Assembly: GCA_964537665.1 (NCBI GenBank) | Contig: CAZIBP010000001.1 | Span: forward strand, 11,972 to 75,971 | Length of the DNA: 64,000 nt | Source: an uncultured Pseudomonadales bacterium | GTDB taxonomy: Bacteria; Patescibacteriota; Microgenomatia; UBA1400; PJMF01 | Direction: 5' to 3' | Part shown: positions 54,706 through 56,306 of the stretch, piece after piece | Numbering within the stretch: position 1 is the stretch's first letter | How the letters are laid out: each line of letters opens with the position of its first letter | The notes under the pieces: generated by a model | Told to the model about the DNA's origin: nothing | Database searches by the model: none | What the model saw: the letters and a program-made list of their open reading frames with translations, nothing else | Translations under genes and position numbers: made by a program

Positions 54706-55437
54706 CTAGGAAAGGATGCGAATTCCAAAAATTAACTCAAGTAATTGAGCAATCCAATAAGCAGCAAAAAGAATGATAAAACCAATAATTGCGCTAGTCA
54801 CCCTTTGTTTTCCTTCTTCCAAGCCTTTAGAGCTACTAGCTCCAAGTAGCATTTGGAAACCACCCAACAAGAGAACGACAAAAAGAATAATTCCAGCTAT
54901 GGGGAAAATGAAACTCTTAAGAGCTTTGGAAATAATTCCTCCCGGTGTGCTCAAATCACCTCCACTACTACTCCCAGACAATGGATTGAGTTTGTTGAGA
55001 GTTGCTCCAGAAGCACCAATGTTATTGACATCAACGTCAGTGGCGCTGCAACTGCCATTTAATAACCAACCACAACAAGTTTGGCCGCCACCAATGTCGT
55101 GGATACCGCTGCCTTCACCACAAACGCACTCTTTACTTCCGGTAGCATAAGTTTGTCCACAGGAGGCATTAATTTCGCTTTCTGGAGCACTTAAGCATTG
55201 ACCAGCCCAATCGCCTTCTTTAACAAAACCACAACAAACACCGCGATTAACCCCATTTAATTGCCAATAGGCGGTCCAATCCGTTCCAGGACAATTGCAA
55301 GTTACTCCCTCTGGAACTGTGGCGTTGCGTAAACTTTGTCCACAAGTGTGTTCAGCGGCTTGAACTTTGCTTGTGGCAAAAATAGCGACCAAAACAGCTT
55401 GCAAAATAAAAGTTTTAAAAAAATTTTTGTTTTTCAT
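54706..55437 (-). CDS. Cys-rich secreted domain fused to a C-terminal TrbC/VirB2-like pilin module (candidate minor/tip pilin)
   Basis: Signal peptide, ~150-aa Cys-rich ectodomain, then LLGGFQMLLGASSSKGLEEGKQRVTSAIIGFIILFAAYWIAQLLELI, matching the TM-loop-TM core of the 20302..23393 pilin paralogs. Confidence 0.55.
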   Translation of the reverse strand: MKNKNFFKTFILQAVLVAIFATSKVQAAEHTCGQSLRNATVPEGVTCNCPGTDWTAYWQLNGVNRGVCCGFVKEGDWAGQCLSAPESEINASCGQTYATGSKECVCGEGSGIHDIGGGQTCCGWLLNGSCSATDVDVNNIGASGATLNKLNPLSGSSSGGDLSTPGGIISKALKSFIFPIAGIILFVVLLLGGFQMLLGASSSKGLEEGKQRVTSAIIGFIILFAAYWIAQLLELIFGIRILS

Positions 55438-56306
55438 TCGCCAAATCCTGGTATATGTAAAATAGAAACGCCAATAAATTGTAAAATAGTGACCGAAAAA
55501 ATGACAAAAATTAAACCAATAATAGCAGAAGTAATAATTTCTTTGGCCTCTTTGGTTTTGTTGGGATCACCTTGAGAAACTGACAGCATAAAAGAACCAG
55601 CCAAAATCATGATCAAAACCACACCACCACCAACTGACAAACCGATGGTAATAACTGTCTGAATAATGCTTTCTGGATCGCTGGGAATACAGCCAACGGC
55701 TGTCCAAATACCTTCACCAGTAAAGCAACTCATGCAAGCTTGGTATTGAGGCTTACTTTGATCAATTTGAGCACAGAGTTCATAAGTTGATGATTCGCTT
55801 GTTCCCAAATCTTCACTATTACATTGTTCGGCACTGCAAGAGGCTTGGACAGGCTGAGAAGATGGAGTATTAAGCTCATAGGTTTTGACCATTGATTGGT
55901 AAGATAGTTGTAGTGAATAGGTACACTGTGAAGCAACGTAAGATTTGGGAATAGTAAAACTCAAGCTCTGATTGGTGACTACAGGATCCATCGGTCCACC
56001 AGCAGAGACATAATAATCTATACAGCCACCGCCTTTGCCAACCCACTTAGCACTGATTGGAGTTCCGTCTGGCAGGGGTGAGCCGTCGCTCAAAGTTAGT
56101 CCATTAAGATTAATTTGCACATCTTGACCAGCTACTGCGCAGCCAGTAAAAAACCCACATTTCTGACCATTAATGTCTTGATAAATTTGCTGATCAGCCG
56201 AATTGATGGAATAAATAACTGCTTGAACGGGTTTGGCACTGGTTGGAAAAACCGTGCCAAAGACGAGAAGAGCTAGAATCAGTTTTTTGATCTTTTTCAC
56301 TGACAT
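55434..56306 (-). CDS. Secreted Cys-containing domain fused to a C-terminal TrbC/VirB2-like pilin module (candidate minor/tip pilin)
   Basis: Signal peptide, ~200-aa ectodomain, then GGGVVLIMILAGSFMLSVSQGDPNKTKEAKEIITSAIIGLIFVIFSVTILQFIG. 4-bp overlap with the previous gene. Confidence 0.55.
   Translation of the reverse strand: MSVKKIKKLILALLVFGTVFPTSAKPVQAVIYSINSADQQIYQDINGQKCGFFTGCAVAGQDVQINLNGLTLSDGSPLPDGTPISAKWVGKGGGCIDYYVSAGGPMDPVVTNQSLSFTIPKSYVASQCTYSLQLSYQSMVKTYELNTPSSQPVQASCSAEQCNSEDLGTSESSTYELCAQIDQSKPQYQACMSCFTGEGIWTAVGCIPSDPESIIQTVITIGLSVGGGVVLIMILAGSFMLSVSQGDPNKTKEAKEIITSAIIGLIFVIFSVTILQFIGVSILHIPGFGE

What the first reader, a model, noticed from the sequence alone, without database searches (positions are those of the whole stretch)
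54706..56306. Pilin core module fused to large Cys-rich ectodomains (candidate minor/tip pilins or pilus-displayed adhesins)
Both proteins end in the same TM-loop-TM module as the seven pilin paralogs (...GASSSKGLEEGKQRVTSAIIGFIILFAAYWIAQLL and ...SQGDPNKTKEAKEIITSAIIGLIFVIFSVTIL). Each also carries a 150-200-aa N-terminal secreted domain with many Cys, the first with 16+ Cys including CC and CxC pairs. Fusing a VirB2-like module to an ectodomain would place that domain on or at the pilus. I do not recognise this as a standard T4SS architecture.
Basis: seen in the sequence. Interest (0 to 1): 0.7.

Follow-up and report, generated by a model that had tools for sequence, protein, structure and literature searches.

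The report
T4SS pilin modules carrying cysteine-rich ectodomains
Two overlapping genes in a Patescibacteria (CPR) genome encode proteins whose tail is a genuine type IV secretion pilin module and whose front is a fast-evolving, disulfide-rich surface domain; this conserved gene pair is found in many related genomes and is a plausible, still untested, host-contact part of a secretion system that is essential in the one cultivated relative where it has been tested.

Summary
Window 54706-56306 (- strand) has two ORFs that overlap by 4 bp: B (290 aa) and A (243 aa). Each has a Sec-type signal peptide, a Cys-rich ectodomain and a C-terminal Pfam PF18895 T4SS_pilin module scoring above the gathering threshold. 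A has 12 Cys, not 16+; B has 10.

An HMM built only from the seven short paralogs finds A (59.9 bits) and B (37.5 bits). It finds no other window ORF, and shuffled modules reach at most 10.9 bits.

At least 206 species genomes encode a B relative. In 71 of 83 sequences (82 related loci plus the window), the B-type gene is followed directly by a second pilin-module gene of the A lineage. The A-lineage ectodomain ranges from none to 42 Cys, most often 0, 6 or 18, with 12, 24, 30 and 42 also present.

Pilin modules are 82-83% identical among orthologues, against 30-46% for the ectodomains.

AlphaFold2 models B as a beta-sandwich head on a 6-Cys stalk, and A as two small beta-rich 6-Cys modules on a disordered linker. 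No Pfam, PDB-sequence or fold match to any adhesin or lectin was found.

Best reading: these are modular VirB2-like subunits of the Patescibacterial T4SS that display ectodomains outward. This is a new variant of a known kind. Whether they enter a pilus, and whether they bind anything, is inferred, not shown.

The parts
56220..56306 (-). B: signal peptide (aa 1-29, ...PVQA|V)
   Evidence: Read from the sequence. AF2 models an N-terminal helix.
55860..56219 (-). B: beta-sandwich 'head' (aa ~30-149; Cys 50, 56, 95, 128)
55677..55859 (-). B: conserved 6-Cys 'stalk' (aa ~150-210; Cys 157, 162, 178, 191, 194, 206; motif GIWTAVGCIPSDP)
   Evidence: Five of the six Cys are invariant and one is >=90% conserved in 81 homologues (tool numbering is full-length minus 1). 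AF2 models two short helices and a beta-hairpin. The motif is found in nearly all B-lineage genes.
55437..55676 (-). B: PF18895 T4SS_pilin module (aa ~211-290), two TM helices and a basic loop
   Evidence: Pfam 32.0 bits against a 26.6-bit cut-off. The seven-paralog HMM scores 37.5 bits. AF2 models a helical hairpin. Mean pairwise identity among orthologues is 83%.
55357..55437 (-). A: signal peptide (aa 1-27, ...KVQA|A); the start codon overlaps the B stop (ATGA)
55045..55356 (-). A: two 6-Cys modules with the framework CG-x(n)-CxC-x(n)-CCG[FW]-x(n)-C (Cys 32, 47, 49, 68, 69, 81 and 93, 104, 106, 121, 122, 130)
   Evidence: All 12 Cys are invariant or >=90% conserved in 57 homologues. AF2 pLDDT is ~80-94 with small beta-rich units. 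A regex for the framework matches 32 ORFs among 2456, and all 32 carry a pilin module. phmmer over 1.84 billion representatives finds the module only in this pilin family.
54943..55044 (-). A: Gly/Ser-rich flexible linker (aa ~132-165)
   Evidence: AF2 pLDDT is 47-65. The composition is read from the sequence.
54709..54942 (-). A: PF18895 T4SS_pilin module (aa ~166-243)
   Evidence: Pfam 35.5 bits. The seven-paralog HMM scores 59.9 bits. Mean pairwise identity among orthologues is 82%. The closest window paralog is p1, at 38%.
51751..54678 (-). 975-aa secreted protein, 27 nt downstream on the same strand; probable third gene of the operon
   Evidence: The same gene follows the pair in close relatives. 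No family hit.
56382..58085 (+). SpoIID-domain protein, divergent neighbour of B (75-nt intergenic region)
   Evidence: Pfam SpoIID. A homologue was found in 77 related loci and is the divergent neighbour of B in all 12 loci whose gene order was printed.
20302..23393 (+). Array of seven short PF18895 pilin paralogs (112-167 aa)
36884..41345 (-). T4SS core genes: VirB4-like ATPase (36884-39091), TrsD-like (39093-40466), PrgI/VirB3-like (40476-41345), next to dnaA
49193..50866 (-). 557-aa polytopic membrane protein, a candidate VirB6 analogue by position only
   Evidence: Conserved synteny with the B/A pair, at 73-81% identity in close relatives. No family hit.

Best explanation
A and B are modular VirB2-type (PF18895) pilin-like subunits of the Patescibacterial MPF-FATA-like type IV secretion system.

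Proposed route and topology:
- Each protein is exported by Sec and its signal peptide is removed.
- The C-terminal helix-loop-helix hairpin sits in the membrane, with its basic loop on the cytoplasmic side.
- The N-terminal domain, stabilised by disulfides, is outside the cell.

Proposed role:
- The hairpin is the part that docks with the machine and with the short pilins, which would explain its very high conservation.
- If the short pilins build a filament or wall-spanning conduit, A and B enter it as low-copy subunits. B may be the initiating or tip subunit, in place of the missing VirB5. Their ectodomains then point outward, because both pilin termini face outward in known conjugative pili.
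- B offers a variable beta-sandwich head on a conserved 6-Cys stalk.
- A offers a variable number of 6-Cys modules on a flexible linker.
- The most likely use of both is contact with the host cell surface.

Shown here: the architecture, its homology, its conservation, its synteny and the contrast in evolutionary rates. Inferred: topology, disulfides, incorporation into a filament, position in it, and binding.
For: - PF18895 matches above the gathering threshold.
- In-register alignment with the short paralogs.
- The paralog-only HMM hits A and B, hits no other window ORF, and shuffled controls stay low.
- AF2 models helical hairpins plus confident ectodomains.
- T4SS context near dnaA: VirB4, TrsD-like and PrgI. 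This layout is described for Patescibacteria in PMC12102498.
- In 71 of 83 sequences the B-type gene is followed directly by an A-lineage pilin gene.
- In several loci the pair directly heads a same-strand run of short pilins (for example L042, L060, L040). In others it lies 3-5 kb from the array.
- Pilin modules are 82-83% identical against 30-46% for ectodomains.
- The Cys are invariant or nearly so.
- Ectodomain Cys counts in the A lineage peak at 0, 6 and 18, with 12, 24, 30 and 42 also seen.
- The A lineage includes forms with no ectodomain but 50-66% module identity, so the ectodomain is an add-on to a pilin.
- Pilin termini face outward in the T-pilus.
- Quinonero-Coronel et al. found no PrgB-type adhesins in Patescibacteria, so the host-contact role is unassigned.
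- The pilin array is essential in S. epibionticum.
Against: - No T4SS pilus has been observed in any Patescibacterium.
- Neither ectodomain matches a known adhesin, lectin or other binding fold or family.
- The cultivated model S. epibionticum has no pilin longer than 185 aa, so there is no experimental anchor for the long forms.
- A 120-aa head on every subunit would crowd a 76-A filament: by my estimate each subunit has about 640 A^2 at the surface of a T-pilus-like tube. This argues against a major-subunit role and says nothing positive for a minor one.
- The very high conservation of the hairpin fits contact with the machine equally well if there is no polymerisation.
Confidence: 0.5

Rival explanations
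1. A and B are fixed, non-polymerising parts of the T4SS envelope complex. The hairpin anchors them in the membrane next to the VirB6-like platform. The ectodomains form or line the cell-wall-spanning part of the channel, or bind or organise peptidoglycan there. They are not displayed on a pilus for host binding.
For: - The hairpins are extremely conserved at 82-83%. B is single-copy and always present, as expected of a structural machine component.
- The pair sits beside cell-wall enzymes: a SpoIID-domain gene with a homologue in 77 related loci (divergent from B wherever gene order was printed), VanW, and a giant M23 peptidase in the cluster.
- Monoderm T4SSs generally have no pilus (PMC12102498).
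Against: - The fast evolution and domain swapping of the B head, and the 0-7 module variation in A, are more typical of exposed, partner-facing surfaces than of a conserved channel lining.
- A-lineage members with no ectodomain show that the ectodomain is dispensable for whatever the hairpin does.
Confidence: 0.3
2. A and B are ordinary surface or secreted proteins that use a pilin-derived two-helix hairpin only as a membrane anchor. They have no functional link to the T4SS.
For: - In the window the pair lies 31 kb from the short-pilin array and about 13 kb from VirB4.
- Housekeeping genes (uppS, mevalonate pathway) separate the pair from the array in many relatives.
Against: - A mere anchor would not be held at 82-83% identity while the rest of the protein drifts to 30-46%.
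- The pair directly heads short-pilin arrays in several genomes.
- In close relatives it is syntenic with the 975-aa, 557-aa and M23 cluster genes.
Confidence: 0.1
3. The resemblance is an artefact: generic TM hydrophobicity, or mis-called or fused ORFs.
For: Two-helix hydrophobic hairpins attract weak hits to many membrane families (the low-scoring extra Pfam hits).
Against: - Pfam scores are above the gathering threshold.
- The paralog-only HMM gives E 1e-18 and 1e-11, no other window ORF matches, and shuffles reach at most 10.9 bits.
- Full-length ORFs with the same architecture are conserved in dozens of genomes.
Confidence: 0.02

Closest known systems
VirB2/TrbC-type T4SS pilins, specifically the Patescibacterial PF18895 'T4SS_pilin' arrays (Wang et al. 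2023, PMC10633639; Quinonero-Coronel et al. 2025, PMC12102498)
   Same: The same C-terminal helix-loop-helix module, scoring above the Pfam threshold. The same genomes and gene neighbourhoods, a signal peptide, and a T4SS cluster near dnaA. The A lineage includes ordinary short members.
   Different: Canonical members are ~100-185 aa with at most a short N-terminal tail. A and B carry 140-180 aa of folded, Cys-rich extracellular domain, and relatives carry up to ~460 aa. They form a fixed two-gene cassette rather than being array members. The published descriptions I read do not mention such forms.
VirB5 minor pilin / tip protein of Gram-negative T4SS (R388 TrwJ, Mace et al. 2022, PMC9259494)
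   Same: The possible role is the same: a low-copy subunit that starts pilus assembly on VirB6, ends at the tip and contacts the target cell. No VirB5 homologue was detected in this cluster.
   Different: There is no sequence or fold relationship. VirB5 is a soluble helical protein, not a VirB2-like hairpin with a grafted domain. No VirB5 family hit for A or B.
Modular type 4 pilins of type IV pili (e.g. Streptococcus sanguinis PilB/PilC; Pelicic 2023 review, PMC10191384)
   Same: The same design logic: a pilin assembly module with an extra domain 'grafted' on, so the filament displays it.
   Different: It is an unrelated filament system: class III signal peptide, N-terminal pilin helix, C-terminal graft. 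Here the signal peptide is Sec type I, the pilin module is C-terminal and the graft is N-terminal. The grafted domains in T4P are recognisable adhesion domains; those here match nothing known.
Filamentous phage minor coat protein g3p (from my own knowledge, not tested here)
   Same: A signal peptide, Cys-containing N-terminal receptor-binding domains, Gly/Ser-rich linkers and a C-terminal hydrophobic anchor that integrates at the tip of a helical filament assembled from the membrane. This resembles A in particular.
   Different: No homology. g3p has a single TM segment and works in a viral context.

Membership tests
Pfam PF18895 T4SS_pilin (VirB2/TrbC-like pilins of Patescibacteria) | Match to the family HMM at or above the curated gathering score (26.6 bits) | tested here: met
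   A scores 35.5 bits (residues 171-233) and B 32.0 bits (residues 214-278). A also has a weak TrbC PF04956 hit (E 5e-4, below its cut-off).
Pfam PF18895 T4SS_pilin (VirB2/TrbC-like pilins of Patescibacteria) | Two hydrophobic helices joined by a short polar or basic loop, aligned in register with bona fide members | tested here: met
   Alignments. AF2 hairpins. The paralog-only HMM gives 59.9 and 37.5 bits, against at most 10.9 bits for shuffles.
Pfam PF18895 T4SS_pilin (VirB2/TrbC-like pilins of Patescibacteria) | N-terminal signal peptide that places the N-terminus outside | tested here: met
   Read from the sequence: K-rich n-region, hydrophobic core, VQA motif. No dedicated predictor was available, and cleavage itself cannot be tested here.
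Pfam PF18895 T4SS_pilin (VirB2/TrbC-like pilins of Patescibacteria) | Encoded with T4SS genes (VirB4, VirB3/PrgI, VirB6-like) and/or pilin arrays | tested here: met
   Window cluster. Conserved synteny. Contiguity with short-pilin arrays in L040, L042, L060 and L070.
Canonical VirB2 major pilin | Small protein whose mature form is little more than the hairpin (about 50-80 aa) | tested here: not met
   The mature forms are about 216 aa (A) and 261 aa (B), with folded ectodomains.
Canonical VirB2 major pilin | Polymerises with phospholipid into an extracellular pilus | not testable with these tools
   This needs microscopy or biochemistry. No such pilus has yet been shown in Patescibacteria.
VirB5-type minor pilin / tip adhesin | VirB5/TraC family sequence or helical fold | tested here: not met
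   No such Pfam or NCBIfam hit. The AF2 ectodomains are beta-rich.
Type 4 (T4P) modular pilins | Class III signal peptide and an N-terminal hydrophobic pilin helix processed by prepilin peptidase | tested here: not met
   The N-termini are ordinary Sec signal peptides ending in VQA, and the hydrophobic module is C-terminal.
Gram-positive T4SS surface adhesins (PrgB type) | LPXTG sorting signal and PrgB-like adhesin domains | tested here: not met
   No LPXTG in either sequence and no adhesin family hit. PMC12102498 also reports none in Patescibacteria.
Known adhesin/lectin/Ig-type domain families (for the ectodomains) | Significant sequence or structure match to a characterised binding domain | tested here: not met

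The most novel reading that the evidence does not exclude
A and B define an undescribed class of modular VirB2-type pilins. They act as the host-recognition and initiation (tip) complex of the Patescibacterial T4SS filament, filling the role of the missing VirB5 and adhesins. The swappable B head and the 0-7 copies of the family-specific 6-Cys module in A would set host range or reach.
Probability: 0.3. Interest if true: 0.8.

Novelty: new variant of a known kind. Interest (0 to 1): 0.6.

Why it matters
Patescibacteria make up a large share of uncultivated bacterial diversity, and those cultivated so far grow attached to other microbes. Their T4SS and its VirB2-like pilins are essential in the one genetically tractable species (PMC10633639). 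What the system contacts or transports is unknown, and no T4SS adhesin has been found (PMC12102498).

A conserved gene pair that joins the pilin assembly module to fast-evolving, disulfide-rich surface domains gives concrete candidates for the host-facing end of this machine. The ectodomains are small, secreted and confidently modelled, so they could be expressed and used as probes for host-surface ligands. They could also serve as labels for finding the presumed pilus by immuno-EM or cryo-ET.

If A and B do enter a filament, they would be the first VirB2-family pilins known to carry grafted domains. That design is so far known only from the unrelated type IV pili.

Tried and rejected

2. PDB sequence-profile searches with A2 and A3 and with the 975-aa neighbour found nothing.

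3. The search for homologous proteins with the B head alone returned nothing, not even the protein itself. I treat this as a limit of the word index, not as evidence.

4. Internal duplication in A. A pairwise alignment of the two modules is not significant against composition-preserving shuffles (z 0.5). The repeat is supported only by the ordered Cys framework and by the copy-number series among orthologues.

5. Promoter and terminator scans were at chance level. The operon structure rests on the 4-bp overlap and the 27-nt spacing.

6. Rejected: chance hydrophobic similarity and ORF-calling artefact.

7. Rejected: membership of the VirB5, T4P modular-pilin or PrgB families (see the membership test).

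8. My own error: the queries lacked Met1, because I trimmed the wrong end on the minus strand. Residue numbers printed by those tools are therefore one lower than full-length numbering. The conclusions are unaffected.
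Full report
**What is there**

Window 54706-56306 holds two ORFs on the minus strand.
- B is 55434-56306 (290 aa) and A is 54706-55437 (243 aa).
- The A start codon overlaps the B stop codon (ATGA).
- A 975-aa ORF follows A after 27 nt on the same strand.
- A SpoIID-domain gene is transcribed divergently, 75 nt upstream of B.
- Promoter and terminator scans were at chance level. The B-A-975 operon is inferred from spacing only.

The window looks like a Patescibacteria (CPR) chromosome.
- GC content is about 0.37.
- dnaA and dnaN lie at 33.8-36.8 kb.
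- Next to them are a VirB4-like ATPase, a TrsD-like protein and a PrgI/VirB3-like protein.
- Further on are a 1276-aa M23 peptidase protein and a 557-aa polytopic membrane protein.
- This layout, a T4SS of the monoderm MPF-FATA type beside dnaA together with VirB2-like pilin arrays, has been described for Patescibacteria (PMC12102498).

**Checking the observation**

Both proteins match Pfam PF18895 (T4SS_pilin) at their C-termini above the 26.6-bit gathering cut-off: A at 35.5 bits and B at 32.0 bits.

The seven short ORFs at 20302-23393 match the same family. The nine modules align in register. The shared elements are:
- a first hydrophobic helix;
- a loop of the type G-[GS]-D/S-x-x-K...[AG]-[KR];
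- a second helix that opens with [ST]-x-A-[IV]-[IV]-G-[LF].

To avoid circularity I built an HMM from the seven short paralogs only.
- It scores A at 59.9 bits (E 1e-18) and B at 37.5 bits (E 1e-11).
- It matches no other window ORF at E<=10, although the window encodes several very hydrophobic proteins.
- 1000 shuffles of the A and B modules reach at most 10.9 bits.

One correction is needed. A has 12 Cys, not 16 or more; B has 10.

A note on numbering: my queries lacked Met1. Residue numbers printed by those tools are one lower than the full-length numbers used here.

**Anatomy**

A consists of:
- a signal peptide (1-27, ...KVQA);
- two copies of a 6-Cys framework, CG...CxC...CCG[FW]...C (Cys 32-81 and 93-130);
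- a Gly/Ser-rich linker (~132-165);
- the pilin module (~166-243).

B consists of:
- a signal peptide (1-29, ...PVQA);
- a head (~30-149);
- a 6-Cys stalk that ends in GIWTAVGCIPSDP (~150-210);
- the pilin module (~211-290).

AlphaFold2 with family alignments gave these models:
- A: mean pLDDT 79. The Cys modules are at about 80-94 and are small beta-rich units. The linker is below 65. The C-terminus is a helical hairpin.
- B: mean pLDDT 84. The head is an all-beta sandwich at pLDDT 94-97. The stalk has two short helices and a beta-hairpin. The C-terminus is a helical hairpin.

In 57 A homologues all twelve Cys are invariant or at least 90% conserved. In 81 B homologues the six stalk Cys are invariant or nearly so.

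A signal peptide plus conserved paired Cys argues for an extracytoplasmic, disulfide-bonded domain. This is an inference; nothing here tests disulfide formation.

**Related sequences**

- A has about 58 full-length homologues and B more than 70. Each carries PF18895 as its only precomputed Pfam domain. Homologues of A and B appear to lie on the same contigs, judging from matching contig lengths.
- A scan of one genome per species found at least 206 genomes that encode a B relative. The informative labels are Pacebacteria, Paceibacterota, Woesebacteria, Microgenomatus and Patescibacteria. Labels such as 'uncultured Pseudomonadales' or 'TM6' look like mislabels.
- In 71 of 83 sequences (82 related loci plus the window), the B-type gene is followed within 150 bp by a second pilin-module gene.
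- By best match of the module, that second gene belongs to one lineage with A: 79 proteins at 44-92% module identity.
- Lengths in this A lineage run from 82 to 543 aa.
- Ectodomain Cys counts run from 0 to 42. The main peaks are at 0 (16 loci), 6 (15 loci) and 18 (12 loci). Counts of 12, 24, 30 and 42 also occur.
- The A lineage is therefore an ordinary short pilin that has gained between zero and about seven 6-Cys modules in different genomes.
- The B lineage is always long: median 398 aa, maximum 507 aa. It keeps the stalk and pilin module while the N-terminal region changes.
- phmmer with the A modules against 1.84 billion representative proteins found the module only in this pilin family. 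The two borderline extra hits are unrelated repeat proteins.
- The ten largest relatives have no Pfam family other than PF18895.

**Rates of change**

| Region | Mean pairwise identity among orthologues |
|---|---|
| A pilin module | 82% |
| A Cys modules | 46% (39% without the Cys columns) |
| B pilin module | 83% |
| B stalk | 50% |
| B head | 30% |

For comparison, the short paralogs within this window are mostly 17-36% identical to one another, apart from one 57% pair, p5/p6. Arrays elsewhere average 25% (PMC12102498).

A tightly constrained hairpin joined to a fast-changing exposed domain is the pattern expected of a subunit that must fit a conserved machine while facing a variable partner.

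**Neighbourhood**

- Close relatives keep the order SpoIID | B | A | ~970 aa | ~290 aa | ~556 aa | large proteins.
- A SpoIID homologue was found in 77 related loci. It is the divergent neighbour of B in all 12 loci whose gene order was printed.
- In several more distant genomes the pair directly heads a same-strand run of short pilins (L040, L042, L060, L070).
- In other genomes uppS and mevalonate-pathway genes on the opposite strand separate the pair from the array by 3-5 kb.
- In the window itself the array is 31 kb away and abuts uppS.

**How it most likely works**

In solved conjugative pili the VirB2 chain is U-shaped. Both termini lie on the outside and the loop lies in the lumen. For the T-pilus the outer diameter is 76 A and the rise is 13.4 A with five subunits per layer (preprint 10.1101/2022.09.25.509369). 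An N-terminal extension would therefore project from the filament surface.

My rough estimate from those numbers is about 640 A^2 of surface per subunit. That is tight for a ~120-aa head on every subunit. I therefore favour low-copy incorporation over a homopolymer.

In the R388 system the pilus grows from its base on VirB6, and VirB5 ends up at the tip (PMC9259494). No VirB5 homologue or PrgB-type adhesin was found here, and no PrgB-type adhesin was found in Patescibacteria generally. B is single-copy, always present and first in the gene order. It is thus a reasonable candidate for an initiating or tip subunit. A would be an accessory subunit of adjustable length.

All of this is inference. 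Three points weigh against it:
- No T4SS pilus has been seen in these organisms (PMC12857230).
- No binding fold was recognised in either ectodomain.
- The genetically studied S. epibionticum has only 103-185-aa pilins, all of them essential.

The main rival reading is that A and B are fixed envelope components. Their ectodomains would then line or organise the cell-wall-spanning part of the machine. The conserved neighbouring cell-wall enzymes fit this idea. The plasticity of the ectodomains fits it less well.

**Comparison with what is known**

- A and B meet the tested criteria for PF18895 / VirB2-like membership: HMM score, hairpin, signal peptide and genomic context.
- They fail the 'small protein' criterion of canonical VirB2.
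- They are not VirB5, T4P modular pilins or PrgB-type adhesins.
- The design resembles the 'grafted' modular pilins of type IV pili (PMC10191384). From my own knowledge it also resembles phage g3p. These are analogies only.
- The papers I could search on Patescibacterial T4SS describe short VirB2-like arrays and do not mention long, domain-bearing forms.

**Verdict**

This is a real, conserved and apparently undescribed variant of a known component, with unproven function. Interest 0.6.

Noticed in passing
window 218-1693 (+) and 1705-2871 (+): Two adjacent proteins (491 and 388 aa) are built of repeated Cys-rich modules (CG..C..DC..G..C..K.C). The 388-aa protein also has Pro/Thr-rich linkers and a C-terminal hydrophobic anchor. 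Neither has a Pfam match. This organism appears to make several disulfide-rich surface proteins.
   Followed up: partly
window 56382-58085 (+); L003-L082: A SpoIID-domain protein with a long N-terminal coiled-coil region is transcribed divergently from B. A homologue is present in 77 related loci. This tight, unexplained pairing of a cell-wall enzyme gene with the long-pilin cassette may mark a VirB1-like role.
   Followed up: partly
window 23403-24662 (-); L019, L035, L058, L059, L061, L073, L079: uppS and an IDI/Nudix-like gene abut the short-pilin array in the window. In distant relatives uppS and mevalonate-pathway genes sit between the B/A pair and the short-pilin array. Pilin genes and isoprenoid-lipid genes are thus recurrent neighbours.
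   Followed up: partly
window 21236-21589, 22104-22442, 23031-23393 (+): Three of the seven short pilin paralogs (p3, p5, p7) have no obvious signal peptide as called, unlike p1, p2, p4 and p6. p7 carries a W-T-x-I-x-x-G-C motif and two Cys, which recalls the juxtamembrane motif of the B stalk.
   Followed up: no
window 40476-41345 (-): The PrgI/VirB3-like protein carries a C-terminal CarboxypepD_reg-like beta-sandwich domain (E 2e-5, below the Pfam cut-off). This is another T4SS membrane component with an added extracytoplasmic domain.
   Followed up: no
window 39093-40466 (-): The TrsD-like protein (NCBIfam TrsD, E 6e-6) has a ~230-aa low-complexity Pro/Asn/Ser/Thr-rich C-terminal tail.
   Followed up: no
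window 46298-49126 (+) and 51751-54678 (-): Two large proteins inside the T4SS region (942 and 975 aa) have no Pfam, NCBIfam or PDB-sequence match. The 975-aa protein is conserved immediately downstream of the B/A pair in close relatives.
   Followed up: partly
window 3452-10195 (-): Read from the translations, this is a run of mevalonate-pathway-like genes: HMG-CoA reductase, HMG-CoA synthase, thiolase and GHMP-type kinase/decarboxylase-like ORFs. A polyprenyl synthase follows at 10234-11298. No family search was run on them.
   Followed up: no
L007 (CP011212.1) and many L0xx loci: Public labels look wrong for several genomes that carry this cassette ('candidate division TM6', 'uncultured Pseudomonadales', 'Limisphaerales'). 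The loci have Patescibacteria-type gene content.
   Followed up: no
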